Part shown: positions 4,314-59,848 of the stretch, piece by piece | How positions within the stretch are numbered: the stretch's first letter is position 1 | How the letters are laid out: each line of letters starts with the position of its first letter | Assembly (NCBI GenBank): GCA_905178155.1 | Contig: CAJINV010000004.1 | Location: 7,471,768 to 7,535,767, forward strand | DNA: 64,000 bases | From: Amoebophrya sp. A120 | Lineage: Eukaryota > Protista > Dinoflagellata | Direction: 5' to 3' | Notes under the pieces: generated by a model | What the model was told of the DNA's origin: nothing | Database searches by the model: none | The model's input: only the letters and a program-made list of their open reading frames with translations | Program-made: the position numbers and the translations under genes

Positions 4314-7300
4314 TTACACCTCCGTGTTGAACAGGCGGTTCCCCGTATCAGTCCCACCCACCCCATTGTACTGGTTCTCCGAAACGCGAAGGGTGAACAA
4401 ATACACTTTTACAACCAACCACGCTGAAGTAGACCGTGCGTTTTCCTCCTGAATCTGCTTGATCTGTTTCCTGAATTCGCTGTTTTCGTTCAAAGTCGCC
4501 GCCTGCACGACGCCGGTCAGCATCAGGATTCTGATTTCGTTTCTAGTCCTCGTGTTTTCGTTTTGTTGGTTTGTCGAGTTGAAGTTGTCAGGGAAAGTAG
4601 AACTTTTGTTTTTGTTTTTGTTTCTCTCCACCTCCACGATCACCTCCTTCGCCTTCTCCGCGGCAATGGTCTTGATGAATTCCACCATCGTCGCCCCGCT
4701 GTTCACCACCGGATCCACCAAAAGAAACACGCCCGCCCCACTGATGACATTGTGCTTATCCGGCAACAGATCGCCGGCTTGGTGCGGGAAGTCGATGCGC
4801 GCGGCGCTCATCTTGCCGAGGATGTCATAAACCCCGTCTGCCATGTACTTACCGGCTCGCATAATGGCGAGAATGCTGGCTTTTTTCAACATCCGGCTGT
4901 TTTGACCAAAGGAGAAGTCCGGTTCGAAACCTCCACCGGGACAAAGATGCCCCTGTTTGAAAATGATGTAAAGGTTTTTCTTGAAGAGCGCGATTTTTAA
5001 ATGTTTGTTTCCAGTACTGCAAGACGAGGTCGACCTACATGGAGGCAGGTGATCATGATAGTACTGCATTCGGTGAGAGGAAATTTCGACTGGCTCAAGG
5101 CCTGCTGGTGGTCGTCCCAAGAACTACTATATGCACAATGCGACAAAAAAGAAACTTCCTTACGTACCTGCACATGCTTGATATCGCACATTCCCAAAAA
5201 CTCGTCCCCAAAACAATCCAGCATCTTCAGCGCCAAGTATTTCCCGACCTCGGTGTGGATAGCGCCCAAGGCCGGCCCGGCGTTTGCCGCGTCGCGCATC
5301 TTCGTCGCCAAAATTTGGCTGGAAGGCAGGGTTGACCCGTCAAAACACAGCGCGAAGAAATCGAAATCTTGGCTCGTCATAGCTGGTGGACCACGACCGG
5401 AAGTGGAACAATTACGGACAGTCTTACTCCACAAAGCTTTAGAAGAAGATGCACACGTCTTCGCCGATATAATTCCGGTCCGGGAACGCTGCATGGCAGG
5501 CTCAACGAATTTTTCTCCTAGACTGTCTTTATTCGCCGCGGTCGCACGAGGACCAGTGCTGCTGGCACGAAAAATATCCAAGAAAAAAACATTGTAGGTG
5601 TAACTTTTTTGGAGGAACAGCATTACAAATTTGTCTGGCATGACAGCAAAAACCTGTCAAGCGCAAATAGTACGCGAAAACGCCCTTTAATGGACCCTAC
5701 GACGCACGCCAAGCATGACAGACGCAATCATCTTGCATGTTGCGCACCACAAATTTACACTAACAACGTTTTTTTCTTGGATAGAAAACGCGAGATGGAG
5801 ATTCTTGATCGCCTGGGACGAGGACCGTCGGACCATTCTTAACCGTGCTGGGAGGTGACGGCGCCGGACCACGTATGCAATGCAAATACGTCTGGGTCTG
5901 GAAATTTGTGATGCAAGGAAGGGAATATTAAGCACCCTGTAATGCGCTCCCCAGCATGACAAGTTTTTCCGTAGTTCAGAGTTGCGTACTCCGCATGAGA
6001 AACTGCGTTTTTGCATGACAGACAAGGGGAACTCTTCGTTGACACGCAATACAGAGTTTAGAGTCATGCCAGACTAGCATGACAAATCTCGGAATCTCCC
6101 AGACCCAGACATATTTGCAGTTCATACCACGGTTTTCAATACCACAGTGGAACACCAGGTCCCGGACTTCGTCCATGGTCGCTTCTGGTAGAAATAAGGA
6201 CAAGGCCACCGCATTCGTCGCAGTTTTCATCTTCGAGGATGTTGACAGGAGATCCAGCTTGCGCACACGAAAACGAGCACTCATCTCATCCAGAAGCTGC
6301 TGATGTCCACAAGAACTGCGCTTCAATTCCGCTGCGAAGCTCTTCGACGTGCCAACCAGCGCGTAGCCGTAGTCCGCTCCCCGCAACATGGGAATATCCA
6401 GCGGACTGTCCCCAAACGCCAAAATTCGACAGCCAGGGCTTCTCTGCCGCAAATGCTCCACAACTTTCAGCTTCGCCGCAGGATTGATAATGACGGGAGT
6501 ATTTCGTTCGGGGTCGAGGCCCAAGACAACCACGAAGGGACAAAGTGGAAATGAGCCAGGACAAACCGCGGCACTCGCAGCTTGTTCCCAGACGACTCTC
6601 AGGCCGCACGTGACGATGACGATCTGCAGCTTGTTCGCATTTCCAATATCACGTGACGCCACTATCTGTTTGATCAGGTCACGGAACTCCGGGTACAGTG
6701 ATTGCGATACCTTGTGCGCGACTTGACTACACAGATTGCGGAACTTTGTGGGTCCAAGCACCTCGAGCACGTCGGCGTAGAGTTTTGCTGCCGAAACAAA
6801 ATTATCCTGTGCAAAAGTATCGTATTCGTAGTAATTGCATTCATGCATACACAAATCTCCATACCAAGGTAAAACAGCATGACAAATTTCATTTGTCATG
6901 CTGACCGAATTTGTAATGCGATTTCTACTAGTGCGATACTTTTGCATTGCATAAAACTCGGTGTACTTGTACGAAGCAGTGAAGATGGTTTCCAGACGAG
7001 TAATATTCGCCGTGCTACTTCTGCTACAGAACCGCCCTTGCAGTTGCATATCTTCTCGCCCTCGCTTCTGTAGCTCGGATTCCAACAGCTCGAAGAAAAG
7101 CGCTCCTGTATCCATGGGAGCGAGTGTTCTGTCGGCGTCAAAGACCAGGTAGGTTTCGATCGTGGGGTTCTTGACTGGACGAAGATTTTTGAGGCCAAAA
7201 TCCAGGACCGCAGGGACGACCTGTTGATTGTTGAAGCTTTCGTGGATCGTGAGTAACCACTCCGCTACCACCCGATCGTAACTTGCGTAGTCATCCGCAG

Positions 7301-9160: not shown

Positions 9161-9324
9161 GCTGGTCGACGGATCATGCGCAGTAACTAGTGCTATCAGT
9201 TATAATTATGTTTGTCTGGTGTTCGGAAAGTAATTAACTTTATAGTTTAAAGCAGCAGCTGAAGGTCAAAGTACAGCAAGAACTTGGACTTGGACTTGGA
9301 AGGATCGAGCTTTTTAGCTTTAGA

Positions 9325-13760: not shown

Positions 13761-13764
13761 GAAT

Positions 13765-20623: not shown

Positions 20624-23600
20624 TTAGTGCAGGATTAGCAAAAACTTTTCTTCCAATAACGCACAGAAATCCGAGTACTTCGTTCTGAATACTCGAATGA
20701 AGTCTCGCAAGGCGGCAGCAAGATGGACAGAATGAGGCGAAAACATGATCAGCTCATCATCTTTCGACAAACCGCCGGACGTTGCGTCCAGTGCTCGGCC
20801 AATGCCGCATGATTCTTCACGAGAGACGAGGGACCTGTTGTACCTTCGGAGGTAGTTCCTCCGAACTGCAAAGGTCCCACGCAGAACGAGGTTATTTTTT
20901 CCAACCTTACTTTCGCGCCTCATCGCCCGTAGACCTTCTTGTCCCATCGAGGCCACCCTGTTGACCGCGCTTTTTCGCACGCTCGACGCGTATTCTGCCA
21001 GCACCGCGCGCCGTCTCACCCGCCACCGCGCCGTCGGGACGGCCTGCCAGGACAAATTCCTGGTCGCCACGATGGGGCGGTCGCGGTAATCTAGCTCGTT
21101 CGTTTGCCGAGCTTCGAGTTGCTGCTGCCAGCGATGTTTATGACTTGCAAAAGCATCGTACTAGAACTAGTAGTAATTGCATATACAAATATACCTTAGC
21201 ATGGCAAATGAAATTTGTGATGCTGTTCTACCTCGGGATGGAGATTTGTAGTGCATAATTCTAATCACTACGAGTACGATACTTTTGCACAGGATAATGT
21301 TTTTCCCGCTGCAGTCTCCTTTTTTCTTCGAACCCGATCTGCTTTTCCGTTTCCCTCCGCTTCTATCAAATGCAAAAATGTCTGGGGCTGGAAGATTACT
21401 AGGTTTGTCATGCAGGTTCTCCATGACCCACGCGGTCTGGCATGCACGGCCTAGCATGACAGGTTCTGTGAGATCTCTATCATGCCTTTCCTGCATGAGA
21501 CACTGCCTCTCAATTTGTTCAAAAGTGGGCCTCTTTTGGTAACCACGCAACACAAATTTTTCCACGATCCAGATGTAGCATGACAACTTACACTCTTCCA
21601 GAGCCAGCCATATTTGCAATGCGCAGCTTCTGCTTCAGTCGTAAACGCCGAAATCGCAAGCGGCGCGCGGCGGGATGGGAGGTGGTGGGGGTCCTCTGGT
21701 TGATGAAGAAACTACTACCCGAATTCCGCTTCTTGCGGAGGTTGAGCTTGTTCACGCGGGACAAAGCAGGAGTAGTAGTCTTCGAACTGCCTGGCAACAT
21801 CGCTGGTTCATCTTGAGCGCCACCTTTGCCGTCTTTTTCCAATGGCACTGTGGTGATCAAGCCGCTCCGCGCGTGGTAGGACACCCTATCTGCGAATCGC
21901 TGCACCTTCGCTTGCGGGTCGGGGACAGTGTCCACGTCCTCTGCAAGAGCCCCTGTGCAGCTGGTTGGGTTCTGGTTCCGCAACGCAAAGTCCATGGGCG
22001 GCTCGCACTCTACATCCGCGGATATTTTTTCCAGCCCACGCAGCGCCTCCGTATCGAAGGGAACTACAAGGGCTTTCTGCTTTGCGCTCTTGTTCTCTTG
22101 CTGTAAACCTCTTCTACCCGGACGGGAGGTGCGGCTGTGCTCTTCTTGCAAACTACTCCCCATGTTGCGCCGTCCACAAGATGGCACCTCGACCTCCGCG
22201 CATTTGGCTCCACTATGAAAATTTCCGTTGGGTAGTTCTTGTTCTTCTACTACAGAACGTCCCAGGTCGGAAAATTCCGCACCTTCACCGACGGCGGCTG
22301 CTGCCGAGAAAAGCGCAATCGGATCATGATCGGGAAAATCGAAGTTTTTCAAAGAATCGTCTCTTGCTTCGCCACTACAACTTCCGGCGCGGTGGTTGAG
22401 GACACGCGCTTCGTGCATCTTCTCCCGCTGCAGCTGTCGTTCCTTTTCGAGCATCACGGCCACTTGCTTCTCCAGCTCAAGCTTTCCCCAACTCAGTGCT
22501 TCCTCCGCATACTTGGGGACGAATTCCTGGTAGCTAAGCATCAGGTAGATCAGCGCAACAAGCTGCGTGACGTCCTGCTCGCAGTTTTGATGTTGTGCCG
22601 TGGGTGGCGTGGTGATTTGTATCGTCGTGTCAAGGTGCTTTTTGGCATGATCATGATCATGGTTGACACGGCAAGTCTCGTTCTTACCACTCGTGCCGTC
22701 ACGACAACCACGCTGGTTAGTCATTTCGCTTGTGTTGTACACAAACGCATGCCTCGTTCGTGGCTGTAGCAGCGCGTGAAACAAGCTGCCTGCTTTCTTC
22801 GGTAACGGCGATTTGGATGTCCTCCCGGTGGGAGAACAACAAGAACTCCAACTCGAATGATTTTTAGCCTCTCTACTCTTGGACAGCACGGCTCTCCTTC
22901 CACTTGAACTAGAACTATTTCCGCGACCGCATAGCCGCAAAAATGATTTGACTACAGAAACCTTTTCCATCAGCGTGAATTCCGACAAGTAGACCACACA
23001 CTCCTCCGCGAGCGCCCCCAACAACGTACTCCCGTTTCCCGCGGAGGTCACACGGTAGCGCGTCAGGATCCGCAATAGGCTGCACAGGTCAGTGGGCGTG
23101 AGCTGATTCGCGGAGGAGGACACGGGCTTCGGAATTTGAGGTGGTGATCCGGAGTATGAACTGCAAAACCAAAAGTATCGCACTCGTATAAATGCATTAC
23201 AAATTTTCTCAGCATGAGGGATGAAATTTGTAATGCTGATTTCCCTTAAGGGAAAGATTTGTAATGCATGATTGCAATACGAGTACGATACTTTTGCACA
23301 GGATACGGAGGATGCGGTTGCGGTTCTCGACGCAGACCAATAGTTGTGAAGCAGCAGAGGTGCGTCAACTCCACCACCCGCAATAAATTTCTTGTCCGCC
23401 CTCTCCTGCCCCCGTCGCCGCCGCCTCGCTTCTTGCACCTCGTTAATTTTCGCTTCGAGTACCTTGAAGTAGCTCTCTCCCCCGAGGGGAAAGGCGTTTG
23501 GAACCAGTTTTGTTTTTCTGGATGCTGTTGTACTACTTCTTGATTTACTTCTTGTCGCACTCCTTTTTAGTTTTGCGCTAGAAGAGCCGAATGTTGCGCT

Positions 23601-27879: not shown

Positions 27880-28029
27880 TATGCATTGCAAAAGTATCGT
27901 ACTAGTAGAAAAAGCATTACAAATTTTTCCAGAAGGGAAAATGATATTTGTAATGCTGAATAAGCTAGGGAGCCAGATTTGTCATGCATGACTGCAATGA
28001 CTACGAGTACGATGCTTTGGCACAGGATA
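27880..28029. mobile_element. Introner, family A, absent from paralog
   Basis: DR CTCCG/CTTCG; empty site CTTCG at 37916-37920. Confidence 0.92.
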
Positions 28030-28939: not shown

Positions 28940-29305
28940 TATCAACTGCAAAAGCGTCTGGGTCTGGAAGAGTGCCAGACTTGTCATGCAGGTTTTCCAT
29001 GACCAATGAGGTCTGGTATGTTGTAAGGACGTAGCGTGACAGATTCTGTGAGAGTTCTAGAGTTCTACTTCTATCATGCCTACTGAAACTGCATGAGAAA
29101 CTGCCTCTCGATTAGGTCAAAAGTGGACAGCTTTTGGTAATCATGCAACATCAACACAGCTCTTCACATGATTCAGCTCTAGGATGACAAGTTGCAGTGC
29201 AACTTGTCATCCTAGAGCTGAATCATGTGGTTGGGTGCAGCACCCTAACACTTGAGCAAGTTGGGTGCAGCACCCTAACTGACCCAGACACTTTTGCAGT
29301 CGATA
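28940..29305. mobile_element. Rearranged family B element with internal fold-back hairpin, no clear DR
   Basis: Family B TIR at both ends; hairpin 29165-29229. Confidence 0.7.
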
Positions 29306-36200: not shown

Positions 36201-36471
36201 TAGCACAGCACTTCTCTGGTGCAAATTTATTGTCCTGCCAAACCGGCATTCTGGCTGATGCTTGTATTGGTATTGCCGCTCCTCATGCAATAAGTACAAA
36301 TGAGGGGGAGGGGGAGTTGTGCAATCTCCTACCCGCCCCCGCGCTGCGGCTTCCACTATTCGCGGGGCTGCGGCTTCGACGCCCTTTACCCTTTGTAGAT
36401 GGCGGTTTCGTCCCGGCCGCGGCCACGACCCTTTCTGTCGCAGCGAGAACGAAAATAAGAAAAAGCTTCAT
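30216..36471 (-). CDS. Large protein with C-terminal MORN repeats, 8 introners
   Basis: YEGEWSDGSRHGYG, YNGQWKNHKRHGRG etc.; frame continuous from MKLFLIFVLAA (36471) under the element+5 nt rule. Confidence 0.8.
30919..31153. mobile_element. Introner, family C
   Basis: TIR; DR ACCCA. Confidence 0.9.
31218..31479. mobile_element. Introner, family B
   Basis: TIR; DR ACCGG. Confidence 0.9.
31654..31930. mobile_element. Introner, family B
   Basis: TIR; DR GCGGC. Confidence 0.88.
32897..33073. mobile_element. Introner, family A, decayed DR
   Basis: TIR; DR CTCGC/CCCAG; removal +5 nt still restores frame. Confidence 0.85.
33853..34116. mobile_element. Introner, family B
   Basis: Partly decayed TIR; DR TCTTT/TCGTT; frame restored. 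Confidence 0.85.
34319..34636. mobile_element. Introner, family B (diverged)
   Basis: TIR; DR TGGCC; frame restored. Confidence 0.85.
34694..35964. mobile_element. Composite 1.27 kb introner, family I, with nested insert
   Basis: TIR GTGTCAG..CGAAATGGACAAAATCGAAAAA; DR GACTT; internal ~39-nt direct repeat 34875-34913/35824-35862 flanks low-complexity DNA and a family B-like element (~35245-35490). Confidence 0.85.
36097..36331. mobile_element. Introner, family F (GTGCACAACTCCCCC TIR)
   Basis: TIR; decayed DR CTCGA/CCCGC; frame restored. Confidence 0.82.
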
Positions 36472-37049
36472 GATGTCGACAGGTAGCGATCTCCTCTACG
36501 ACCTCCTTCTGCCTGCTACGTAGTACTTACCGCCCCCTGAGGATGACAGAGCTTCTTTTTGTTTTTCTATATTCTCTTATATAGAAATAAGTAAAATCCC
36601 AAAGGGAAGTTTGTTTAAATAGAGCACGGTAGCAGGTGATGCTGATGCACAATCACAATCACAATCAGTTGGGCCACTTATAAATCCTCCTGCACCTCCT
36701 CCGACCGAGACGAAGGAATAAAAGTTGCTGAAGATGCTGAGGCTGACGCACCACTTCTTGTTCTTGATCTTGAAAAAATCAAAATATAAATAGCGGCTGC
36801 GGAAAAATAAAAGCGGTATATAGAATATCTGTGTCTCGATCTACGATTCCAAAACTAGCACGATGCGGATTCTGAGGCGACTTTGTAGTTTTGTGGGGGT
36901 CAAAAGTTTCTACTCCTGCACTGGCTGAAGTAAGAGGCTGTGTGTTTTCGTGAAGCAGGAGGCTGACAAAAACCTCGACTGTCCCCTAAAGCGCTGGACG
37001 CCCTAGATTTGACAGCTCTTCATGTTCTTGCTCATGGCTTCCCTAGTAC

Positions 37050-37842: not shown

Positions 37843-40800
37843 CTAACAGATCGTCAAGTGATGGGTCCTCGCGTTTGGGTAGTAGAGCTTTTTCAGCAGC
37901 TCGGCCGCCGCGACGCTTCGATGCCTTCCCTTGCGGCAGTTCACCGCGATGGCGTGAAAATTTTCCGCCTCGACTTTCTTTACCACCATTTCCATCCAGA
38001 CCGGGAATAGCGAGCACCGGGAAATTTTGCTCTGGATTTCCAGCGAAAGCCCGTTCATTATCGTAAGAAAAAACTGTTCCACTGTAAGGATTTTGGTTTT
38101 GCAAGTTTTGCATTACAAGTTCGCTACACATTACAAAAAAAACTCGCCATGCAAGGATCCTAAGGGAAAACACCGCTAAGAATCACTTGTCTTGTATGTG
38201 TAGCAAGACAAACACTTCAGTGATGCATTTTCTGCATCACAAGTTCACAGTGAAACAGTTTTTTCCTGCGATATTCATCTTCTTCAAATTTATACCCGAG
38301 CCCTTCCCCGAAAGCACCGTCGCATTGAAGTTCGCCTGGGCTTGCTTGGGGGTCGTTTTCAAAATTGCCCGGCCCCACGTGTAGATCGCGAGGGATCGGG
38401 TTTTGTCATACTTCAAATTCTGCGGCAGGTAGGTGGTGCAGATAGACAGGTCGTCGTCGTCGTCGTCGCTGTCACAAACATCCTCGTTGTCGCTCGTTGT
38501 CCCAACAACATCTTGGCCTCCACCAAGGTCATCTTTGCCACGATTTATTTTCCCCCCGCCACCAGTTGTCAGAAACCCGTCTTCCGAAGCAGCCGCGCGT
38601 GCCCACTGTAGCAGTCGGGACGGGAAGGAGCTCGCGAACCTTCGTTCCTGGAGGTCTTCAGCATTTATTTCATCTTCTGTGGTACCACCGGATGAACAAG
38701 TAGCGGCAGAAGTTTTCAACGCCGTCGAGGACAACTATGGCGTTCTCAACTGTTACATTCTCAAGTGTTACATGGATGAACTTGTCATGCAAAATTGCCA
38801 TCAGCCTCCACTTGATCAAGGTGCTTTAGCATGACAAATTTTCGAAAGGCTAAACAGCATGATAATCTGTGGAAAATCTAAATCTGTCATGCGAAAGGTG
38901 CAAAAAGAAAAATGTTGCCACTTTCACTTTTGCTGTTCTTGCATTACAAGTCCATGTAATAGTTGAGAATGTAACGTTTGAGAACGCCATAACAACATCT
39001 CCAGTTCCAGCCAGCTCTCCACGTCCTCCGGCTCCAAGCCGTCGCAGTATGCTGTGCAAAAGTATCGCACTCGTAGTAAAATTGCGTTTATGCATTACAA
39101 GTTATTTCTTTGTCAAGGTAATTCAGCATTACAAATTTAATTTGTAATGCTGGACAAATTTGTAATGCATTTATACAACAAGTATCGGATACTTTTGCAG
39201 TTCATACGCAGGAAACGCTGACCACGTTTTCCTCGACCTGCTCGATGGTCACGCCGCGGCCGTCCCGGCCGCTCTGCGCCCAGCAGTCGGGGCCGTAACT
39301 GTTATGGCGCTCTCAACTGTTACATTCTCAACTGTTTTTACATCGAATTTGTGATGCAAGGGCGGCAGTATTGATGAAAGGGGGGAGGTTGCGCCTCTTG
39401 CATTACAAATTCCGCACAGATTTAGGTGCTGTCTAGCCCTTCGCAGATTTGTCATGCGAAGCAGCTTGACCACCTGGCGCCTATAAAGTAATTTCGCATG
39501 ACAAATCATGTAACAGCTGAGAATGTAACATTTGAGAACGCCGTAACTGTGAAACCCCGCGTCGGCGAGGGCGGCGGCGAAGGCTGTATCCTGTGCAAAA
39601 GTATCGTACTCGTATTGCAGTCCTGCATTACAAATTTTTTTCTCAAGGTGAATCTGGATTACAAATTTTCTTTCTCATGCTGAGGAAATTTGTCATGCAT
39701 TAATACGAGTACGATACTTTTGCAGTTCATAAGCTGGGGAACGGAACCACTCCGCCAGCCGGCGGGACGAGGAAGAGTGATCTCGTCCTGGCGGAGGCGG
39801 TGAGATAATTTCCTCGCCGTTTTGAAGATTTTGAGGAAATCCATTTTGTGGCGTGGTCGATGTGGCAGCTACTTGTTCCTCGGTCAGAAACGTCGCAATA
39901 TCCTGCAAAACCTCCATGTCGTCGGGGAGCTGGGCAAGAAAGTCTTCGAATTTCTTCCGTAGAGGTAGATGTTGGCTCTCGTCCAGAGCAGCAGGTGGTA
40001 GTACCATAATTCCACTTCTAGAAGGAAACCCTTCCACAAGAACCGGCTTGCCTCCGCCTTCCGGATAATTTCGGCGGGGCAGTCGCAAGACAACCGTCAG
40101 TGGGCTGCATATTAGGGAGCTACTGCGGAAATCGCCTTTCATCTCGTTCTGCTCCGGTACAAGTTCTTGCGCCGCCAGCTCCACGACGATATCACCAGTG
40201 GTTTTGTGAATTGCCTCAGCATCGTCTGTACCTGCTCCTGGCGATGTTCTAGTAGTTCTTGACCCGCTAGTAGAAGTACTGGAACTACTCGTACTACAAC
40301 CGGTAGTAGTACAACTAGAAGTCGCGAGAGCAGATGAAGAATAAGCCCCAGTATCCCGGTCCCGCACTGCGCCGAACACTTTATCATAGTGCACAACTCG
40401 AACTCCCCCTCGTTCTCATTTCTCATGCAAAATACCAAACTCACACTTTCCCTCCTGGTCCTGTCACTATCATGCATGACAAGTTCTGGAAGCCCAAATA
40501 GCACTACACTCCTCCGCAAATTTGTCATGCAAAACCTGCATTCTTGCTGGCACTTGTATTGCCGTTCATGTTATATGTAAAATTGGACCAACGGGAACCA
40601 ATTACATGAATAGACTGATCTAAATTCGCTCACTCTTCTTATGCTGCCAGCAGAACACAAATATCTCCCCCAGGAGAGAGTCCAAGTGTGGACGCCAAGT
40701 CATTATCAATTTACATCGGTGTCATCAGTGAAAAACAAACAAACAATCCTTGAGCCACGATGGGCGGTTGGTTCACGCAGAAATGATTGATATCAGCGAG

Positions 40801-44703: not shown

Positions 44704-47332
44704 CTAACCCGCCTGCTTCTTCTCCGCGCCTGTTCCTCTCGGCTTGTAGTCGTAGACGATTTGCGGCTCCGGCATCAGTATGGATTGCAAATGTGTCTGG
44801 GTCTGGAAACTTGTAATGCTAAAAAAGGAATGATAGACGCACTCCACTGCAATACGCAGCTATGTCGCATGACAAATTTTTTGCCTGCCATGTGTTACGT
44901 ATTCGTATTCCGCATGGCAAACCGCGTTTTTGCATGACAGGTAAGAGTGCCTTTTCGCGACTATGCAACACAGATTCTCGAATTATAATGCCAGACAGGC
45001 ATGACAAACTTGCATTTTTGCAGACCCAGATGACATATTTGCAATTCATAACCAGCATGGCCTTCATCACCGGGTTCAGCAGCGGAAAGTTCCGGATCTG
45101 CGACTTGTGAAAGTAGTAGGGCGACTCGTAGATGGCCCCCGCGACTCCCGTATCCTATGCAAAAGTATCGCACTCGTATAAATGCATTACAAATTTCCTC
45201 AGCATGAGAAATAAAATTTGTAATGCTGATTTACCTTAAGGAAAAGATTTGTAATGCATGAATGCAATACGACTACGATACTTTTGCAGTTCATAGCCCG
45301 GCTGCTCCCGGTAGTTGTAGATCTTGTCCAGTTCGGTTTTCTGGCAAACCTTCTGCTCGTATCAAATGCAAAAATGTCTGGGTCTGGAAGATTGCGAGAT
45401 TTGTCATGCTTGTCTGGCATGGCCAAAAAGTTTGCGATGCGTGTCTAAGAAGAGACCAGTTTGCCTGTCATGCAAAAACGCAGTTTGTCATGCGAAAAAC
45501 GCAACACAAAGAAGCGCAGATATTTCTCATGCCTGCCTGTGCATTACAGGGCATTCACTATTCCCAACGCAGCACTACAAGTTTCCAGACATCCAGGGAT
45601 TTTTGCAATTGATAGCTCGATCGCCTTGCGCTGCGAGGGTGACATCGGCGAGTTGGGCGGGAGTTTCTCGTTCTTCAGGTAATGTAAAGCCGGGTCAGAT
45701 CGGTACTGCTGGATGTCCATCTTGTGGATTTCCTTTCCGACGCGCAATCTCCCCTCGAGATGGTCGTCAAAACGCGGGTAGTACTTGTCGAGCAGCGGGC
45801 TGGGATACTTGGGTAAATTCTCGTACTCCCGCTTGCTGATTTTCTTCGTGTCCATGTTGTTCTGGCGCACGGGGAAAATGCGCACGTTATCGAAGGTGTG
45901 CGGCATGTGGTACCCAATGTTCATCACGTGGCCCTCCAGCCTATGAAGTGCAAAAGTGTACTACTATCCTACTGGTGATAAAAACTCAACTGCGGTCTTC
46001 CATTTACAAATCTTTTTCTTAGAAGGCTTAGCCTTAGGTGGCAGGTAGATCGCATATTAAAATACAGACTCCATTGTACATCATCATGCCGAAGAAATTT
46101 GTAATGCAGTTAAGTACTAGTACTGAATAGTACGATACAACTTTTGCACAGGATACAGCCAGGAGCTGGTCAACCTTGGTCGGGACCACCGGTGCTCCAG
46201 GTCCTGGTCCCACTGAATATCTACGTCGTCCGTGTCGTACAGGCACAAATCCTCCTCGAAATGCCGTCTCGTCCGGGAGGGCGAGGGCGAGGAAGATGTT
46301 GACTGATGTTGAACAAACCCATCTGAGGACATCAAAGTCTCGAAGTGCGCAGCATAATCCTGATCCTCGTCCTCGACGTTACTTCCCTGTTGATCTCCTA
46401 CTGCAGCTGTATTTTTCATCGGCGACAGCACTCCTCGTCGTTGTTGCAGCTCTCTGTCCAGCGCATCTTCAGTGGTGCCACTAGTACCACTACTTTTCTG
46501 CTCCGCAAGCGACATTGTCGTGGACCTGCCCGCACGCCAGCTCTTCATGGTGGAGCGCAACAAAGGTTTCATCGGTTCCTTGGCTTGCGGTTCTTGGCGG
46601 CTGAAGGTAGTATTTGCTTGATGTGGAGAACTACGGGCGGCTGACGAGGAAAGCCCATTGGCTGGTGAAAGAACCTCATCGGGACAGGCTCCTGAACCTA
46701 CTGCGGCACCTTTATTCCCCCTGTAATTGTCTGGACTCGTCCGGGTCGTGCTGGAGGTCGGGCTACTGTTCTTCAAGATCCCCTTTTTTCCGTAAAAGTG
46801 ATCGCCGAATTTGACCGTCTTGTGCCTCGCGGACCAGTCCGGATTGGTCATCCGCGCGATTTTCTCCTCGTCCACCACGCTTCCGCGGCAGCACCGGTGT
46901 CGCGGCGAGCTGGAAATCGATTTCAACCGCAAGTGCTTCACCGCCTCCCGCGGATCGGAGGAGTCGAAGAACCGGCGCTTTGTGTCGCTGAAGATCTTCA
47001 AGTCCTCCGGTTTCAAGTCCCGGCGCCAACCTTTTGCCACGTCGGAGGTTTGCAGCAGATTGTACAGGTTCTCCCCCGACTATCGCAAGAAAAAACTGTT
47101 TCACTGTAAACTTGTGATGCATAAAATGGAACGCAGAAGTATTTGTCTTGCTACACATGCAAGAAAGTGGATTTTTAGCTGTGTTTTCCCTTAGGAAGCT
47201 TGCATGGCAAATTTTCTCTGTCATGTAGAGCGAACTTGTCATGCAAAACCTGCAAAATCCTTACAGTGAAACAGTTTTTTCGTGGGATACCGACGTCGGG
47301 TACTTGAAAGTCGACAGCGAAACGGTGCACAT
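44704..47332 (-). CDS. Hypothetical protein, 5 introners
   Basis: Reconstructed frame MCTVSLSTFKYPTSGENLYNLL...KKQAG*. Confidence 0.75.
44779..45050. mobile_element. Introner, family B
   Basis: TIR; DR ATCAG/ACCAG. Confidence 0.88.
45151..45295. mobile_element. Introner, family A
   Basis: TIR; DR TCCCG/GCCCG. Confidence 0.9.
45360..45614. mobile_element. Introner, family B
   Basis: TIR; DR GCTCG. Confidence 0.9.
45942..46155. mobile_element. Introner, family A (diverged)
   Basis: TIR; DR CAGCC. Confidence 0.85.
47081..47289. mobile_element. Introner, family E (reverse orientation of 38059-38273)
   Basis: TIR; DR CCGAC. Confidence 0.92.
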
Positions 47333-48751
47333 GGTTCACAATGTGATTTGGTATTTTTATTTATATTTTAGCAGGTAGACTCAAAGATAAAGGAAATAAG
47401 GTGGGGAATAGGAATACTTGAAGTGAGCCGCGGATTTGGTGGATCAGAGGGTGAGTTCGTGCCTTGCTTGTAGAAAAGCACTCAAACTACCGAGTGCTCC
47501 TTAATTCTGATTCAAATTCTTATTTGCTGCGCATGATAATTCATCGAAGCGCTAACAGCAGGGGTACTGCGATATCGCTTTATTGCATATTATGGGTGGG
47601 CGAGGAGGTCCTGGAACAAACGCAAAGAAATCGACTTTAGTAAAAAGTAAAACCAAGTAGCAGAAAACGAAGACATGCTTGAGGTACGATACTTAGACCA
47701 CTATTGCACGACAAAACGACCGAAGAGGTGTAGCTTTTGCACGAAGTATGGCCGACCAAATACGACATTGGCGGTGCAACAAAAACTGAAACCGATGTTG
47801 AATGGAAGCGACCGAGTGCTTCAGTTGTAGCAGGAAATTCCTCGATGAAGCCGGTGGCTCCAGTAGTATTTGGCTGTGCTTTTTTTTTCAAAATTTGTAT
47901 CAGCGCACGTAGGTACATTTCATTTATTTCGAAGTTTCAGTATAATTTGCAAGTGTACATTGCAGTTACCACGATTTCCATACAAGTTCGACTTGGACTG
48001 TCTGTCACTGTAGTACGACAAAGTTGAAGATGGGTTTGATACATATTGACTCACTGAAAAAACTTCCTTGGCGCTTTCAACCCCAGGGGACGACACTAGG
48101 TACATATCATACAGTGGTCGGTTCCTGCTTTTCGCTTCTTTTTATTTGTGTTTGTATGTACATTTACATGTTGACATATTTATTTCATTCATGTTGCTTT
48201 GTAATTTCCTCTGAACCGGATGAAGGTGATTTGGTCTCGTTCATAGCAAAGGGGGTAGAAGATAGAGAAGACAACAGCTGCATCCATCGCCGATCGTGCA
48301 AGGGGTTCGACGGAGGTGAAACGGCATGAAGACGATCTGTTTTCGTAAAGGCATTCGCTTCTCAACATCAGAAATTCAAAAGCAAACCATATCCACATAC
48401 ATAATGAGAAGAACAAGAGCGTTTTCGTGACGAGAGGCACAGAAAAAAACAGCAGGAAGAAAAAACAATTTATCGATACCATTCGGTCATGATGTGCGGA
48501 TTTGCCGATTGATGCCTCCGTCATGGAACCCTGCTGCGCGCGCGGAGAGGTGAGTCAGTTTTTCTTCGCGGGTCGCTTCAGTCGACGTGCAGCTCCTCTT
48601 CGTGCTGTTGTTATTTCTATTTTTCGTAAGAATTAAATTACTTCAGTGAAAAAAGAATGAATTTCATAAAATACACTTTCTCGTGAGACATAAAAAGCAA
48701 AACTCAAATGACATTTGCCAAATGTTGTGTTTCAGTTTTTGCAGCTGCAGG

Positions 48752-51802: not shown

Positions 51803-54643
51803 TCAATACGCATGAGAAATTATCGGTGGTGGCTGTGATGTTTCACAAAATACTTGCGAGGCGACATCGGTGTGCTCGTGCTTGTCGAGATGGTCACCGT
51901 TTGTCGTCTGGATGAAGGATGCACTTGAGTGGAAACTACCCCACTGACGGTCCTGCTTGCGCTGAGCGATGAGCGTCCGGTCCTTGCTGTCCAGCTGCCT
52001 TCTCCACGTTGCCTGTTGTGAACCATTTATGAAGATTGCGATTGTGTCTGTGATATCAACTGCAAAAATGTCTGGGTCTGGATGATTTCGGGATTTGTCA
52101 TGCACGTTTTGCATGAGCCATGATGTCTGCGACGCATGCCGTAACATCACAGATTTTTTGAGGGGTTCTTGATGCCTCTTCCGCATGAAAAATGCCCTCT
52201 CCGCGTAGCAAAAATCACATTCCCTTTGCTGCTCCTGCTGCAATACAATTTTTTTTAGAATCCGATGACAGCATCACACGTTGCAACCTTCCAGACCCAG
52301 ACATATTTGCATTTGATATGTGACACGCTGAGAAAATACTGTATTGGTATTGGCATTCACGCTACGATTTCCGGATCTACGTGCAATCCGCTTGGAGCCT
52401 TCTGCGCTGGCCTAAGGCCTTCGTTCTTTTGGTTTTACCGCACGCCATCGGATGGCTTTCGTTCCTGTTGAGCACTTCCAATTCCTGATGGCTCGTGCTC
52501 AACAAAACATGTTTCTGCATTTATCTAGACCGTCTTTGGCACATCGAAATCAAAACCACACACAGCATCAAAGACAAAGACTTACTGCATGGGGCGGCAC
52601 GAGCCAGGGGCGACTGGCGGGACCGTCTGCGAGAGGCTGAATAGGGGCTACGCGTGGTGGTTGCCGTCTGTTGATGCCCCGAGCCGCCTGCAATCGCCTG
52701 TAATGCGGGTTGGGTTGAGCTTGATTTTCCGGGATGCGGGGGTTTGACGCGCTTGACTTTCATATAGTAGATTCTCGAAACTAAACTGGGCAAACGAAAA
52801 AGAATCTACTAGCAAGGCAGCCGCGGGCCCGAACACCACCCACAGGCCGATGGTGCTCGTTCGGCGGAAATTTTCCGCCTAACGAGCACCATCGAAGGAC
52901 TTAAATGTAAATCTCAATGCGCATCAAAATGTTCCGGCTGAACGCAGTCCAGCCATGGCGTAGTAAAGCTTCATCGCGCTTCATCATCCCAAAGCATCGC
53001 GCAATCCCCTTGCTAGAGTCTCCGGGATACTGTTTCCCTAGTTTTTAAAGTTGTGCAACAACTCTACCCCTTTCCGCCGGCGGAAAGGGGGGGAGGGGGT
53101 ACCACCCACCTGCCCGGGATTTTCGGTCGGCACGAAAAAAACGAACTGGGGCCGCCTCTACGGAAAGGGGGGGAAGGGGGGGCGCCACCCACCTAAACGG
53201 TGTCGGTCCCCCTTTCCGCCGCCGGAAAGGCAAAGGGGTAGGGTTGTTGCACAGCTTAAAATTATAGTTTCCCGTGGTCTCTGTGGATCTTCTTCTTCAG
53301 GTTATATCTAATCTACCTATTCGCTACATCGAATGTGAGGCGCATTATTATTTTGTGTCAATACTAATACAGGAACCCAGATCTTCATGCAGCGGCTAGC
53401 CCTGTTGGGCATCAACTTCTGCACCCTAGGTCGGATTATCGCTCCTAAAAACCGTGGGGCCTGGAGGTGCGCCATTTCACACCTTTGCATCCATTTCTCA
53501 TGTGTCCTTGGACCTAACTACCAAGCATCCCATTCATGTTCGACCTGATCCTGAAGCACAGCCTGCATTTTTGGTACATTTACGTGAAAAAGGTGGCGAT
53601 ACTCGACATCAATCCTTTTTTGTGGCGGCCGAAACACCTCTGGCTCGGATTCCGGACTGCTCACCTCTAGTTCATTCGAGGACTGCTCCTTGGCATCGGT
53701 TGCGGATGCGGACGGCGACGGCCAGCAAGAACACGAATTATACGACGATCGGACGTAGTTCGCGCAGTCTGCAAACGAATAGCCTTTCTGGATGAAACTC
53801 GAAGATCCCGTGTAGTCCTCGACAGCAATCGGGACGCCGCCGCCAGGCTGGTGCCCCGGTACTTCTCCGCCTTGCTATGCATTGCAAAAGTCAAAGTATC
53901 GCACTTCTATTGTGGATTGCATTTACAAATTTTCCGAGGAACAAAAATGCATTTGCCATGCTGTTTTATGTACAAACTTGCAAGTATACAAGTGCGTTAC
54001 TTTATTTGCAGAGGATACTTGCGCTCCACCCGCAGCTGCAACGCCGGGACCTCCCGAAAACTTGTCGCAGAACGCCTTCGCCTCAAGCCGAGACACGCGA
54101 CCATCTCCATTTCCGTCCACCCTCGCTCCCGCAATCGCTTCCAGTTGTGCTACGATGGCGTTTTTCTGCTTCGTCGCAGTGTCGAGGACGTGGTTCGTCT
54201 GGGCCAGCAAACCGAAGAGCCTGGGGTTTTAACGTCCGTCTGTTCCTACGATCACCATCTACACTGTTGACTAGTCGAAGTAGAAGAGTAGAAGTGACCA
54301 ACAACTGCTGTTGAACTTCTCCTACTACCTGCGTGCCTTTGCAGAGTAAGTGACATGACATCGTGAATCACGATCGTGATACTGAGAGGGACACGACAAC
54401 ACATCAGCTGCAGCTACAGATAGGTGTAGTTCTAATGAATCAAAAAATTCTACGTACACCAAATTAATACATTTTGACGTGATCTTCCGGAATCAACTCC
54501 CCTGGGACCACGCAAACGTTGAGGACGACCACAAACCAAAATAGCACAGACATCCCCACGGACCACGACACCGGAGAGGGAGAAGAAGAATGGTGGCGCT
54601 GCCAGCGGTCCCAGCGGCGAAGGCTGTAGCCCTTGCCCTTCAT
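51803..54643 (-). CDS. EF-hand-containing, probably secreted protein, tandem paralog 2, with 2 introners and canonical introns
   Basis: Same EF loop; 54050-54530 nearly identical to 49480-49950; hydrophobic N-terminal segment; boundaries uncertain. Confidence 0.5.
52054..52318. mobile_element. Introner, family B
   Basis: TIR; DR TGTGA. Confidence 0.9.
53049..53256. mobile_element. GC-rich MITE unrelated to the introners
   Basis: TIR AGTTGTGCAACAACTCTACCCC / GGGGTAGGGTTGTTGCACAGCT; TTAA-like flanks; internal palindrome CCCCTTTCCGCCGGCGGAAAGGGG. Confidence 0.75.
53876..54017. mobile_element. Introner, family A (diverged)
   Basis: TIR; DR CTTGC. Confidence 0.85.
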
Positions 54644-55628: not shown

Positions 55629-58600
55629 CTAGCACCCGTACCTGTGGTTATCCAAAATCATGATCGGCACCGCCTGCTCGTGGTAGAAGCCGAGTGGTTC
55701 CCACACCAGCCCAACCAACGCGGCCACTTCCTGCAGGGCCATGAACTCGCCATCTAAAATCTAGTATGACAGTGCATAACTCCCCCTCGTTCTCATTTCT
55801 CATGCAAAAGACTCAACTTACCCTTTCCCTCCTGTCACTATTATGCATGACAAGTTCTGGTAGCCCAAATAGCACTAGACTCCAGCGCAAATGTGTCATG
55901 CAAAACCCGCTGCATTCTTGCCGACGCTTGTGATGCTGCTCATGCAATACAAATGAGGGGGACGAGGGGGAGTTGTGCACTCTCATATCCAGCCGTCATA
56001 GTTGATCAACTCGTCAAACACCAGCACCTATGGGTTGCAAATATGTCTGGGTCTGGAAGATTGCAACTTGTCATGCTAAATGTGAATCATGCAAAAATCT
56101 GTGTTGCATGAGTGCCAAAAGCTGCCCACTTTCGGCCAAGTTGGGAGGGGATTTCTCATGCAGTATAGGCATGAAAGAAACCTCATAGAGTTTGTCATGG
56201 TAGCTCCCGCATTCCAGACCTCATGGGTCATGGAAATCCTGCATGACAGATCTGGCATCCTTGCAGACCCAGACATTTTTGCATTTGATAGCACCGTGCC
56301 CCGCTCCAGCCGGCAGGCGAAATGCAGCAGCACCTCCCGGGCCGCGGGGTAAATATCCATGTCCATGTGTAGGAAGGCGACGCGGGTTAGGTGATCCAAA
56401 TCGGTTTTCGTTTCGTTGAACCAGCCCTTGTGGACTTGGATGTTGGGCATGTTGGTCACGATTTCCGGCACTTTGCCCTCCATGGTAAAGGTCCCGCCCT
56501 CCAGGTTGTTCCACTTCTCCGGGATGCCAACGAACGAATCGAAACCGTGTAAGGTGACGCGGGAACCGTATCTGAAGGTGGAAAAATTCGTTTTTGACAC
56601 ATACTGACAGCCAGGCATGGCACAAGCACAACATTAGGTATTCATATTTGCATTCACATTCTATCTTGCTTGCATGAGAAAAAAATCGCACAAATTTGCA
56701 ATAGATACGTTTTCTTCAGCGCGGTTGCAATGTAGGCAGTCGACTTTCCGCTCGCCACGCCAAACTCGGCCCAGACCGTCCCCTCCGCGTCCGCGTTTTC
56801 GATTCCCGCTTGTACGGCGTACTGCAGACTTTCGCTCATCATGGCCATCCACGACTCTCGTGCGGTTAAGTTTGCGGTCCACAGCGCCGCGGGCTCGTCA
56901 ATGTTTGCAATGTTGAATTCTAGTCTGTCCAGCGGCTCCCCTAAGAGCTGTTGCTGGTGTTGCGGTGGTGATTCTTGTTGCGCGCCTGGTACTGCTTCCT
57001 CTTGTAAGAGTTCTGCGTTAGTGCTGCTCGCCAGCTGATCCTGCGGCGCGCTCGCAGCAGCCGCCATGTACTGCAGCAAAACCTTCGCGTGCTCCTCATC
57101 CATGGTCTTAAACAGCCGCGCTCGGTTGCGCGGCCGGTCGGAATAGCCGTTGAGCGCTGGTGTGGCCTCCCACACGTCCGGAAAGTTCACTTCCAGCGGG
57201 GTCGGCTCACCACTCGACGTCGGCAACAGCAGCGCTTCCACCTATGACTTGCAAAAGTATCGCACTCGTATAAATGCATTACAAATTTCCTCAGCATGAG
57301 AAATAAAATTTGTAATGCGGATTTACCTTAAGAAAAAGATTTGTAATGCATGACTGCAATACGAGTACGATACTTTTGCACAGGATACCACCCGGTAGTT
57401 CGCGACGACCGGTGCGGGGACCCAGAGCACGGGTAAGTGGGTGGAAACGTCTTATCGAATGCCAAAATGTCTGGGTCTGAAAGAGTGCTCGGTCTGTCAT
57501 GCAGGTTTTCCAGGACCCACGCGGTCTGGCATGCACGGCCTAGCATGACAGGTTCTGTGAGATCTCTATCATGCCGTCCCTGCATGAGAAATTGCCTCTT
57601 TTGGTAATCATGCAACACAAATTTTTCCACGATCCAGATGTAGCATGACAAGTTACACTCTTCCAGACCCAGACATATTTGCGATGCATACGTCCTCCGT
57701 TTTCACCAAATCAATCCCCTGCAGACACATCTCGGCCTGGAAATCGTAGCCGATGCAGCTGGACCCGAGTTCGTCTTTCAATAGGCCATATTACAATGAA
57801 AAATGCTCCCACCCCCGAACTCGGGGGCATTTGTATTGCAAACCTTTCCAAGTGAGACATTCGCGCTCTTGCATCTATCAACACCACAGATTTCCGATTG
57901 TGAATAGCAAAAATCTGTATTGCAAAAGACCCCAGCAAGAGCGGCACTTGTCATGCAAGCGATGCGACGCACGCGTAGGCTCTGCATGTGCATCAGAAAG
58001 ATAAGATTCATACTCCTTTCGTGCATGATGACAAAACGTTTTCATTTGGAAACTTCGCATCACAAATTTTTCCAACTTTGGGGGTGGGGGCATTTTTCCT
58101 TTCGATAGGCCCACCGCGTTGAAGACGCTGGCCATCCGCAGCGGGTTGTGCCGCGCGGGGGATATGCATTGCAAAAGTATCGTACTAGTATAAATTGCAA
58201 TACAAATCGGCTCTGCGTATACAAATTAAATTTGTAATGCGGATTTCCCTTAGCACGTAGATTTGTAATGCATAAACTGCAATTAGTACGAGTGCGATAC
58301 TTTTGCACTGGATAGGGGACTCGTTCTGCTGAAACCAATCCTCGACGGATTTTTCCGGGTATGGATTGCAAAAATGTCTGGGTCTGGAAGATTGCAACTT
58401 GTAATGCTGTTTTTGGATTCCAAAAAAATCTGTAGTGCATGACCAGCAACAGGACTCCACGTTGTGTTACGTAGAGAGGGCATTTCTCATGCGGAGCAGG
58501 CATTAGGGAGCCCGCTAAAAATCTGTGTTGCTAGATCATGCATTACAGGCATCAGGCGTCATGCGAAAAATGCATGACAAACCTGGCAATCTTCCAGACC

Positions 58601-59848
58601 CAGACATTTTTGCATTTGATACCGGGCTGCAGTAGCTGATCGAGTAGGTCGCCACGAGGTAGGTTTCGTTCAGAAACTATCCTGATTAAAAACGTACCAA
58701 CACCAGAGTCAAGATGGGGATTTTGCAACACAAACCTAGGAGTTTTGGGAGTCACGCATGACAAGTTTCAGTCTGTAAGGTAGTGCAAGTTAGCAAGGAA
58801 AGCCGCATCACAAATCGATCTGCTGATCCTGTTTACAGCATTACAAGTTCCCAAACACGATTGAAAATGCCTGTCATGGGGTTGCGCATCACAAATGTTC
58901 CTGTCATGGCAAATCTGCATGACAACTCTGGTGTGGGTACGTTTTTACTCAGGATAGAAACGGAGCGACTAACGGGATCATCCGTTCTCGGGAGGTAGTC
59001 GCTTTATTCATCGCACCGGTGTTGCCGCCGTCAAGAAGTGCTAGTTTATCCCCACCTCCTGCCGCGGTGACCGCGTCTGCGTTCGCTGGGCCGATGGGGT
59101 GTGTCGCAACGAAGGGCTGGGGATGCTTGTAGGGAAAATCGCGATTCTCCGTGTAGTAAAGCGGGTCGAACTGGAAGCGAAACCGCTGGTGCTGGCCGTA
59201 TTTAGGCAGCTCCTGCTTCGCTTTCGCGGCTGTCATCGACGCCATCAAGGCTTCTTCTTGTCCGGGTAAAACCACCTGCTGCTCAGCCTGAACTCCTGCA
59301 GGACCAAGGTTCAATGTTTCCGTGATGTTTAGACACAGGAGAAGCTTCAGAACCGAAAGAGCAGATGAATTGGAATTCTTCCCTCCTCGTCGTGGCAATA
59401 TAGCGGGGCCGTGCTGGTGCGGCCTTTTCCGTAGGAGATTTTTGGCGTTGTCTGTGACTGGGCTGGGTGGATTTCTCAATATCGATGAACCCGACATTGA
59501 TGGACCACCATCAGACGTTGATGGTGGTCCACCTCCCGGTCGTGTGTAGAGGTAGTAGTTGCGACTATGTCCATAATCGCTCGGTCCTGTAGTACGTCTC
59601 TTTGTTCCCGCGTCAACATGTGTTGATCCATCCTGGTCTTCACCGATTCCCGACGAGGAACTTGATGCCTTTGAAGGACATCTGGTTGATATTTCCGCAG
59701 AGGATTTCGACAAAGTTCGCTTCCCTCCGCCTGAGCCTGGTGGAAGTAAATACGCACCTTCCCCTTCCGCGCACGGAAAAACACACACCGTTGACGGCGA
59801 CCACGCCGTCGCCAGTGGTTCCGGCTCGTCTAACCAAGCGACCGACAT
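55629..59848 (-). CDS. Class I SAM-dependent methyltransferase (TylF/Methyltransf_24-like) with long N-terminal extension; 8 introners + 1 GT-AG intron
   Basis: EFGVASGKS, HGFDSFVGIPEKW, KGWFNET, AFLHMDMDIY, VFDELINYDGW..GEF. Confidence 0.85.
55765..55987. mobile_element. Introner, family F
   Basis: TIR; DR TCTAG/TCCAG. Confidence 0.88.
56029..56290. mobile_element. Introner, family B
   Basis: TIR; DR GCACC. Confidence 0.9.
56572..56708 (-). other. GT-AG intron with introner-like remnants
   Basis: GTATCT...TTCAG restores LKKT-YGSRV; TATCT/AGATA ends. Confidence 0.7.
57243..57387. mobile_element. Introner, family A
   Basis: TIR; DR CCACC. Confidence 0.92.
57453..57690. mobile_element. Introner, family B
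   Basis: TIR; DR CGTCT/CGTCC; interior like 21364-21625. Confidence 0.9.
57789..58107. mobile_element. Introner, family H
   Basis: TIR; DR GGCCA/GGCCC. Confidence 0.88.
58163..58314. mobile_element. Introner, family A
   Basis: TIR; DR GGGGA. Confidence 0.9.
58360..58621. mobile_element. Introner, family B
   Basis: TIR; DR CCGGG. Confidence 0.9.
58678..58956. mobile_element. Introner, family D
   Basis: TIR; DR GAAAC. Confidence 0.92.

What the first reader, a model, noticed from the sequence alone, without database searches (positions are those of the whole stretch)
6803..58621. Same introner family sits in both orientations relative to transcription
Seen: all host genes are on the minus strand, yet several homologous pairs are reverse complements: A 6803-6953 vs 21139-21296; A 39587-39731 vs 57243-57387; E 38059-38273 vs 47081-47289; B 31218-31479 and 52054-52318 vs 24061-24335 and 58360-58621; B 459-711 vs 45360-45614. 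Several contain stops or would shift the frame, so they must be removed. Known: spliceosomal signals (donor, branch, acceptor) are polar. Inference: removal is symmetric, either by hairpin-guided RNA cleavage/ligation or, more radically, by DNA-level excision like ciliate IES.
Basis: partly seen in the sequence, partly recalled or inferred. Interest (0 to 1): 0.88.

Follow-up and report, generated by a model that had tools for sequence, protein, structure and literature searches.

The report
Two-way transposon introns, fixed cut offset
In the algal parasite Amoebophrya, small transposons inside genes face either way about equally often and are missing from likely-RNA assemblies whichever way they face, with the informative cuts fitting one offset (1 base before, 4 after the hairpin), which likely means this already-known intron type is trimmed from RNA by hairpin position rather than cut from DNA.

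Summary
All named pairs are reverse complements, and the host genes read on the minus strand. The window is Amoebrophrya-type DNA: two host proteins are identical to Amoebophrya sp. A120 entries. The elements are that strain's published introners (TAT...ATA inverted ends, 5-bp duplication; Farhat 2021).

Added here:
- Likely-RNA contigs skip both orientations within one transcript. All 17 listed element joints remove element+5 nt.
- 234 related copies split 115:119 by orientation.
- Degraded duplications fix the cut at 1 nt before and 4 nt after the inverted repeats, in transcript sense. This does not flip with the element, and one copy needs no direct repeat.
- No GT or AG preference.

Removal is therefore orientation-blind but polar, not symmetric. 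The inverted ends give identical termini either way, which removes most of the paradox. IES-like DNA excision is not supported: one DNA run retains the elements.

The catalyst is untested: a relaxed spliceosome is slightly favoured over a nuclease-ligase. Either-orientation introners are known in Polarella, with canonical sites. The scan noted similar hairpin introns in other protists.

The parts
6803..6953 (+). Family A element, orientation alpha (strand field gives the orientation within the family; the host is on minus throughout). Duplication AAAAT/AAACT; empty site in the duplicated gene copy near 1390. In frame and stop-free; not covered by an RNA lay.
21139..21296 (-). Family A, orientation beta; removal inferred from record offsets of an X5 contig (62 nt between pieces)
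21364..21625 (+). Family B, orientation p; its 5' end in transcript sense is mutated from TAT to TGC, yet removal is inferred
24061..24335 (-). Family B, orientation q; no joint shown (low cover)
28940..29305 (+). Family B, orientation p, outside a long ORF (likely UTR). Flanking repeats mismatch at 4 of 5 positions. Joint 28935>29307 has zero ambiguity and fixes the 1+4 offset.
31218..31479 (+). Family B, orientation p; joint 31211>31479; strong hairpin in transcript sense (z -10.3)
32897..33073 (+). Family A, orientation alpha; repeats mismatch at 3 of 5 positions; 5' offset 0 or 1
38059..38273 (+). Family E; skipped by contiguous pieces of an X5 contig (220 nt); empty site in the paralogue near 28445
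39587..39731 (+). Family A, orientation alpha; an X5 piece starts at 39733, so 5' offset is at least 1 (inferred from one piece end)
44779..45050 (-). Family B, orientation q; joint 44773>45051; 5' offset 0 or 1, which excludes the mirror value 4
45151..45295 (-). Family A, orientation beta; joint 45146>45297; 5' offset at least 1
45360..45614 (+). Family B, orientation p; skipped in the same contig as 44779 (q)
47081..47289 (-). Family E, opposite to 38059; joint 47075>47290
459..711 (-). Family B, orientation q (duplicate copy at 5874-6126); not covered by an RNA lay
52054..52318 (+). Family B, orientation p; not in an ORF of 150 codons or more; no joint shown
56029..56290 (-). Family B, orientation q; joint 56022>56290
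56572..56708 (-). GT-AG intron skipped in the same contig as 56029, 57453 and 58360; it fixes transcript direction. Its 5' end looks like G plus an introner arm, with no matching 3' arm.
57243..57387 (-). Family A, orientation beta; joint 57237>57388
57453..57690 (+). Family B, orientation p; joint 57446>57690
58163..58314 (-). Family A, orientation beta; joint 58157>58315
58360..58621 (-). Family B, orientation q; joint 58354>58622; strong hairpin in transcript sense (z -13.8)
30219..36495 (-). Host gene (MORN repeats) with 8 elements; the spliced frame contains deposited protein P0004 (1058 aa) exactly
44707..47335 (-). Host gene with 5 elements, including B in both orientations; the spliced frame contains deposited protein P0001 (502 aa) exactly
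55632..59899 (-). Host gene with 8 elements (B q, p, q) and one GT-AG intron, bridged by one 2377-nt X5 contig

Best explanation
These are non-autonomous DNA transposons with inverted ends (TAT...ATA) and a 5-bp duplication, inserted either way round, which likely-RNA contigs skip in both orientations; they are likely cut from the pre-mRNA at an offset measured from the terminal hairpin (N-TAT...ATA-NNNN), probably by the host spliceosome working without GT/AG recognition. Shown: anatomy, insertion with a 5-bp duplication (empty paralogous sites), no overall orientation bias, removal of element+5 nt in both orientations, and an offset that follows the transcript and not the element. Inferred: orientation does not matter because the inverted ends give the same termini and the same stem either way; removing 1+4 flanking bases cancels the 5-bp duplication, so insertions leave the protein unchanged. 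Least certain step: the catalyst. The 5' end reads N-U-A-U, in register with this organism's G-U-A-U donors, and the stem would deliver the 3' site in place of AG recognition. Approximate odds: RNA-level and orientation-blind about 0.9; spliceosome as catalyst about 0.55.
For: RNA contigs: 17 of 17 element joints listed remove exactly element+5 (5, 12; arithmetic). One 4605-nt contig skips B-q 44779 and B-p 45360. One 2377-nt contig skips B-q 56029, B-p 57453, B-q 58360 and a GT-AG intron. Offset: exactly 1 for 28940 (B-p); 0-1 for 44779 (B-q), 32897 (A-alpha); at most 1 for 36097; at least 1 for 45151 (A-beta) and 39587. Only 1 fits all. Farhat's nine top A120 splice motifs all have T second, as N-T predicts. 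Related loci: 115 vs 119, all 10 families in both orientations. Codon test on mismatched duplications: 58 of 91 fit the rule, and offset 1 scores best. For the spliceosome: 4 of 5 contig-supported GT-AG introns start GTAT (one read with a 1-nt slide); TIR positions 4-7 pair in only 35-59% of copies against 84-96% at positions 8-14, leaving the 5' end accessible; A120 keeps U2, U4, U5, U6 and 83 of 89 spliceosome proteins, with U1 snRNA undetected; A25 introners start TT/TTA, also in donor register.
Against: The exact offset rests on one unambiguous joint, in an atypical 366-nt copy, plus five one-sided bounds; only the B pair 28940/44779 directly rejects an element-tied offset. The contigs come from one study and two samples, their RNA status is the tool's guess, and they cannot give efficiency. 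The deposited proteins may derive from the same data. The codon signal came from one orientation class (35 of 52 vs 12 of 26), offsets 0-3 differ little (199-202), and frames were chosen with offset 1. Against the spliceosome: no excess of G at +1 (85 of 269, flanks about 32%), AG at the end (22 of 269) or GT-AG (8 of 269); no branch-like motif at one fixed distance; TAT conservation is equally explained by transposase needs, and my scan required TA[TC]; euglenid hairpin introns are thought non-spliceosomal.
Confidence: 0.55

Rival explanations
1. Same RNA-level, hairpin-measured removal, but done by a non-spliceosomal protein endonuclease and ligase (tRNA-splicing- or IRE1/RtcB-like). The hairpin would be released with a 3-nt 3' overhang, perhaps as a circle as in euglenids.
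For: No nucleotide preference at +1, -2 or -1. Strong terminal stems in both orientations. Euglena's signature N3CDG...CH'GN5-6 has a similar 2-3 nt stagger and is attributed to non-spliceosomal factors. Family A favours U-G over C-A in the transcribed strand (110 vs 62), which fits stem pairing in RNA.
Against: The cut lands in donor register (N-U-A-U) in A120 and apparently in A25. One GT-AG intron begins with an introner-like arm (56572-56708). No candidate enzyme was sought or found. The U-G bias is absent in other families (87 vs 89) and not significant in the window (35 vs 25).
Confidence: 0.33
2. Programmed DNA-level excision like ciliate IES, so that transcripts come from an already cleaned template.
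For: TA-starting inverted ends and a transposon origin resemble IES ancestry (recalled). Only one DNA run, of unknown life stage, was laid.
Against: DNA-like run X1 had depth 0 at the five joints listed for the RNA-like runs, although the tool left some joints uncounted. Its contigs cross exon-element borders of 21364, 28940 and 32897 at single-copy depth 39-44. A second assembly holds 355 intact copies. The offset follows transcription, not the element. Contigs that skip introners also skip GT-AG introns. Dinoflagellates have no separate somatic nucleus (own knowledge).
Confidence: 0.03
3. The joints are reverse-transcriptase template-switch artefacts across hairpins flanked by direct repeats.
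For: Stable hairpins with 5-nt direct repeats are the typical substrate (own knowledge). Only assembled contigs, not direct RNA reads, were seen.
Against: The joint at 28935>29307 has no shared bases and 44773>45051 has one. Retention would break 46 of 48 host ORFs. All 17 joints remove the same extra 5 nt.
Confidence: 0.03

Closest known systems
Introner elements among the non-canonical introns of Amoebophrya sp. A120 (Farhat et al. 2021, PMC7789003; abstract, sections 10, 11, 12, 16, 36, passages, supplement part 3 and legends read; figures not seen)
   Same: Same organism by protein identity; inverted repeats starting TAT + 7 nt + AAA; 3-5 nt direct repeats; hairpin; co-oriented genes; repeated families; non-canonical splice ends.
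   Different: [quoted passage not shown] The 50:50 orientation, the fixed 1+4 offset and independence from the direct repeat are added here.
Introner-like elements of Polarella glacialis and Aureococcus (Roy et al., 10.1101/2020.10.14.339549; passages read; Aureococcus only as cited there)
   Same: TIR transposons with target duplications that make introns in either orientation.
   Different: They recruit GT/GC/GA and AG sites from the element or duplication, and classes 6, 8 and 10 show an orientation bias. Here there is no dinucleotide preference and no overall bias.
Euglenid nonconventional introns (PMC12501133: abstract section, section 5, passages; PMC11282704: passages)
   Same: No GT-AG; ends held by an inverted-repeat stem; short 5' and longer 3' unpaired flank; slidable junctions; likely MITE origin.
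   Different: The signature N3CDG...CH'GN5-6|R is absent here, and the offset is 1+4 rather than 3+5-6. Circular excision products are shown for Euglena and untested here.
Fritillaria borealis non-canonical introns (via PMC11282704 and 10.1101/2025.08.15.670264, passages)
   Same: MITE-derived introns with non-canonical ends, attributed to a modified U2 spliceosome; a precedent for the favoured catalyst.
   Different: They keep preferred ends (AG-AC, AG-AT); here the first and the last two bases are free.
Ciliate internal eliminated sequences (recalled)
   Same: Transposon-derived, TA-starting inverted ends, interrupting coding sequence.
   Different: Removed from DNA. Here the DNA run retains the elements and the duplication is 5 bp of any sequence.

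Membership tests
Amoebophrya A120 introner element | Occurs in Amoebophrya A120 genes | tested here: met
   P0001 and P0004, named Amoebophrya sp. A120 by their sources, are contained exactly in the spliced frames
Amoebophrya A120 introner element | Terminal inverted repeat starting TAT, 7 variable bases, then AAA | tested here: met
   40 of 53 5' ends and 38 of 53 3' ends in the window; 222 and 225 of 269 in related loci
Amoebophrya A120 introner element | 3-5 nt direct repeat at the borders | tested here: met
   5 nt; perfect in 36 of 53 window copies (35 plus one after a coordinate fix) and 257 of 355 in related loci (that scan favoured matches)
Amoebophrya A120 introner element | Removed from transcripts with non-canonical ends; repeated in families | tested here: met
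   17 of 17 listed joints (RNA status is a guess); families
MITE (non-autonomous TIR DNA transposon) | TIRs, target duplication, short and non-coding, empty paralogous sites | tested here: met
   Five filled/empty pairs show one copy of the 5-mer at the empty site
MITE (non-autonomous TIR DNA transposon) | Cognate autonomous transposase with the same ends | not tested
   No whole genome was held; no transposase among 21 ORFs scanned against Pfam
Canonical U2 spliceosomal intron | GT/GC start and AG end | tested here: not met
   GT-AG in 8 of 269, G at +1 in 85 of 269, AG end in 22 of 269, all at background
Canonical U2 spliceosomal intron | Branch point at a set distance from the 3' end | tested here: inconclusive
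   TRAY-like words lie at about -41 to -50 in both orientations of family A but are scattered in B; use not testable
Canonical U2 spliceosomal intron | Excised as a lariat by the spliceosome | not testable with these tools
   Only contigs were informative; no raw reads of this strain
Euglenid nonconventional intron | N3CDG ... CH'GN5-6|R signature | tested here: not met
   Ends read N-TAT ... ATA-NNNN (consensus)
Euglenid nonconventional intron | Ends joined by a stable stem | tested here: met
   z -13.8 and -10.3 for one copy of each B orientation
Euglenid nonconventional intron | Released as a full-length circle | not testable with these tools
   Needs RNase R or small-RNA data
Ciliate IES | Absent from the transcribed (somatic) DNA | tested here: not met
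   DNA-like run X1 retains the elements at single-copy depth, with depth 0 at five RNA joints; one run, stage unknown, counting truncated

The most novel reading that the evidence does not exclude
Amoebophrya has a splicing route that ignores splice-site sequence altogether and measures both cuts from a terminal RNA stem (1 nt 5', 4 nt 3'). The offset matches the 5-bp duplication of its transposons, so any insertion, in either orientation and at any site, is erased from the mRNA. It is carried out by a non-spliceosomal nuclease-ligase convergent with the euglenid system.
Probability: 0.3. Interest if true: 0.85.

Novelty: already known. Interest (0 to 1): 0.5.

Why it matters
How Amoebophrya removes its non-canonical introns, more than 60% of all its introns, has been open since 2021, and the published borders were called variable or unknown. 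A single rule (intron = N + TAT...ATA + NNNN, either orientation) would let these introns be annotated exactly. It tells experimenters where to look for lariat or circle junctions. It would also explain how tens of thousands of transposon copies spread at little cost: unlike other introners they need no lucky GT or AG and no preferred orientation. The elements themselves are not new, and either-way splicing follows largely from their inverted ends.

Tried and rejected
No whole genome was held, so genome-wide counts, a transposase search and a search for splicing enzymes were not possible.

Raw RNA run X9 gave only 92 partial reads, 83 of them fitting two places, mostly on one B inverted repeat. 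It is probably another strain and gives no evidence on expression or efficiency. No listed holder is on record as RNA.

Joint tables were cut (15 of 1616 rows, 15 of 24).

Tests for polar signals in the elements:
- G at +1 and AG at the end: no excess.
- G-U vs A-C over TIR positions 1-20: 185 vs 159, p 0.18.
- Sense vs antisense folding energy: 142 vs 121, p 0.22.
- k-mer asymmetry reduced to the family A positions 16 and 21.

The homologue search for the HAD gene found nothing among longer proteins, so the offset at 6803 was not constrained. The Atlas search of ORF 12600-13742 gave no hit at 0.9 or more.

Literature searches with no report of orientation or offset for these elements: 0 papers; 2 papers; the phrase refers to genes or a protein fusion; 0 papers; 1 review, listing only. 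Most subscription papers are not searched, and Farhat's figures S19-S25 could not be seen and may show the offset.

One element was entered as 40383 instead of 40382; it was corrected (ORF 571 codons instead of 521). The host-strand caller was trained on the window, so its window check (45 minus, 8 uncalled, 0 plus) is circular.
Full report
Verdict. The elements are the published introners of Amoebophrya A120. Removal is orientation-blind but polar, and is best placed at the RNA level. The DNA-excision idea is not supported.

Observation. Self-BLAST confirms every named pair as reverse-complement homologues. With the inverted ends trimmed, reverse scores (82-166) far exceed forward scores (18-31) and shuffled maxima (24-33). 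I delimited 53 elements, three of them duplicates in a segmental copy; together they make up 21.5% of the window. Nearly all start TAT and end ATA and are flanked by a 5-nt direct repeat, perfect in 36. Five paralogous empty sites carry one copy of the 5-mer, so these are insertions with target duplication. Removing them gives minus-strand ORFs of up to 1313 codons. Retaining any one breaks the ORF in 46 of 48 cases; 6803 and 23155 are the exceptions.

Identity. Two host proteins match entries named Amoebophrya sp. A120 at 100% and are contained exactly in my spliced frames. Farhat et al. 2021 (PMC7789003) describe A120 introner elements with inverted repeats starting TAT + 7 nt + AAA, 3-5 nt direct repeats and hairpins. 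[quoted passage not shown] The window's ends fit that motif in 40 and 38 of 53 cases.

Both orientations are removed. Runs X3-X6 are assembled contigs that the tool only guesses to be RNA; they come from one study and two samples. They behave as RNA: depth differs by orders of magnitude between genes, and they skip GT-AG introns. One 4605-nt contig skips B-q 44779, A-beta 45151, B-p 45360, 45942 and E 47081. One 2377-nt contig skips B-q 56029, B-p 57453, B-q 58360, two A-beta copies and a GT-AG intron that fixes the direction. All 17 element joints listed remove element+5 nt. Contigs cannot give efficiency. The one raw-read run laid (X9) was uninformative.

No orientation bias. A pattern scan returned 140 loci (399 kb) with the same families, at up to 95% identity. 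They held 355 distinct elements; 269 had a host strand called and 234 a family orientation. The split was 115 vs 119 (A 52:68, B 31:21), and all 10 families occur both ways. Strand calls agreed within 53 of 57 multi-call loci. At the strictest threshold the split was 74 vs 90, with A at 32:50, so a mild lean in family A is not excluded.

The cut is polar. A perfect duplication makes a junction slidable; a degraded one does not. At 28940 (B-p) the flanks mismatch at 4 of 5 positions, and the joint 28935>29307 is unique: 1 nt before TAT and 4 nt after ATA in transcript sense. The other bounds on the 5' offset are 0-1 at 44779 (B-q) and 32897 (A-alpha), at most 1 at 36097, and at least 1 at 45151 (A-beta) and 39587. 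Only 1 fits all. An offset tied to the element would give 4 for B-q, which 44779 excludes. The 28940 joint also shows that the direct repeat is not needed. Farhat's nine commonest A120 splice motifs all have T in second place, as the rule predicts. A codon test on 91 mismatched positions agrees weakly (58 fit, p 0.006), but the signal came from one orientation class and the test is partly circular. The rule rests on few informative joints and needs a genome-wide check.

Why orientation is free. The inverted ends present the same 5' and 3' termini and the same stem either way. One B copy of each orientation folds at z -13.8 and -10.3. A polar machine is therefore not excluded. Polarella introners spliced in either orientation show this with canonical sites. 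What is unusual here is the absence of any dinucleotide preference: G at +1 in 85 of 269, AG at the end in 22 of 269, GT-AG in 8 of 269, all at background.

DNA-level excision. The DNA-like run X1 (even depth of about 40-50 in unique sequence) showed depth 0 at the five RNA joints listed, with the caveat that counting was truncated. Its contigs cross the borders of 21364, 28940 and 32897 at depth 39-44. This is one run of unknown stage. The transcript-polar offset and the joint loss of GT-AG introns also point to RNA. I put IES-like excision at 0.03.

Catalyst (inferred). For a relaxed spliceosome: the 5' end reads N-U-A-U, in register with the G-U-A-U start of 4 of 5 contig-supported canonical introns. 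A25 introners begin TT/TTA. TIR positions 4-7 are mostly unpaired. A120 keeps U2, U4, U5 and U6 while U1 snRNA was not detected. One GT-AG intron starts with an introner-like arm. For a nuclease-ligase: no +1, -2 or -1 preference, no fixed branch motif, and a stagger like that of euglenid introns. Family A shows U-G over C-A in the transcribed strand (20:5 at position 16, 32:5 at position 21; 110 vs 62 overall). Other families do not (87 vs 89), and the window alone is not significant. This test was post hoc, and my search pattern fixed T at those positions in one arm, so it is only suggestive of RNA-level pairing. I give the spliceosome about 0.55 and a nuclease-ligase about 0.33.

Novelty. 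The system is already known. I found no report of its orientation neutrality or fixed offset, but the library omits most subscription papers and I could not see Farhat's figures S19-S25. Earlier notes of this scan describe similar hairpin introns in other protists; I did not check them.

Noticed in passing
window, all element families: A shared internal motif (GCAT-N-ACA and its reverse complement) occurs 145 times inside elements (10.5 per kb) and 4 times outside (0.08 per kb), on both strands in 32 of 53 copies, across families with unrelated ends. It could be a common transposase or splicing-factor site.
   Followed up: partly
L001-L140, family A TIR positions 16 and 21: Arm mismatches are U-G far more often than C-A in transcript sense (20:5 and 32:5), in both orientations; not seen in other families.
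   Followed up: partly
window 1-3839 vs 5416-9194: Near-identical copies (98.7-99.5% over most of their length) of a HAD/AAA gene either side of an assembly gap (N 3840-3939), differing by presence of A 6803 and E 1819: a recent duplication or two haplotypes.
   Followed up: partly
window 27425-28553 vs 37461-38382: Paralogous segments differing by three insertions (27880, 28090, 38059), showing insertion after duplication.
   Followed up: partly
window 34694-35964 and 40382-40996: Long elements (1271 and 615 nt) with normal ends and perfect duplications; the first holds tandem repeats and nested element ends and is absent from deposited protein P0004.
   Followed up: partly
window 56572-56708: A GT-AG intron whose 5' end looks like G plus an introner arm, without a matching 3' arm: a possible introner-to-canonical conversion.
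   Followed up: no
window 9325-10384 and 13765-14823: Direct repeats of about 1.06 kb (74% alike) enclosing a 388-codon minus ORF (12600-13763) with no Pfam hit and no Atlas hit at 0.9 or more; LTR-like.
   Followed up: partly
window 25253-25531 and 58678-58956: Two family G copies 96.8% identical, suggesting recent transposition.
   Followed up: no
window 53044-53261: A palindromic element with different ends, outside long ORFs.
   Followed up: no
window 31214-31249, run X9: Raw RNA reads under the same species label match only a B-family inverted repeat, with foreign flanks, hinting that a related strain shares this repeat.
   Followed up: no
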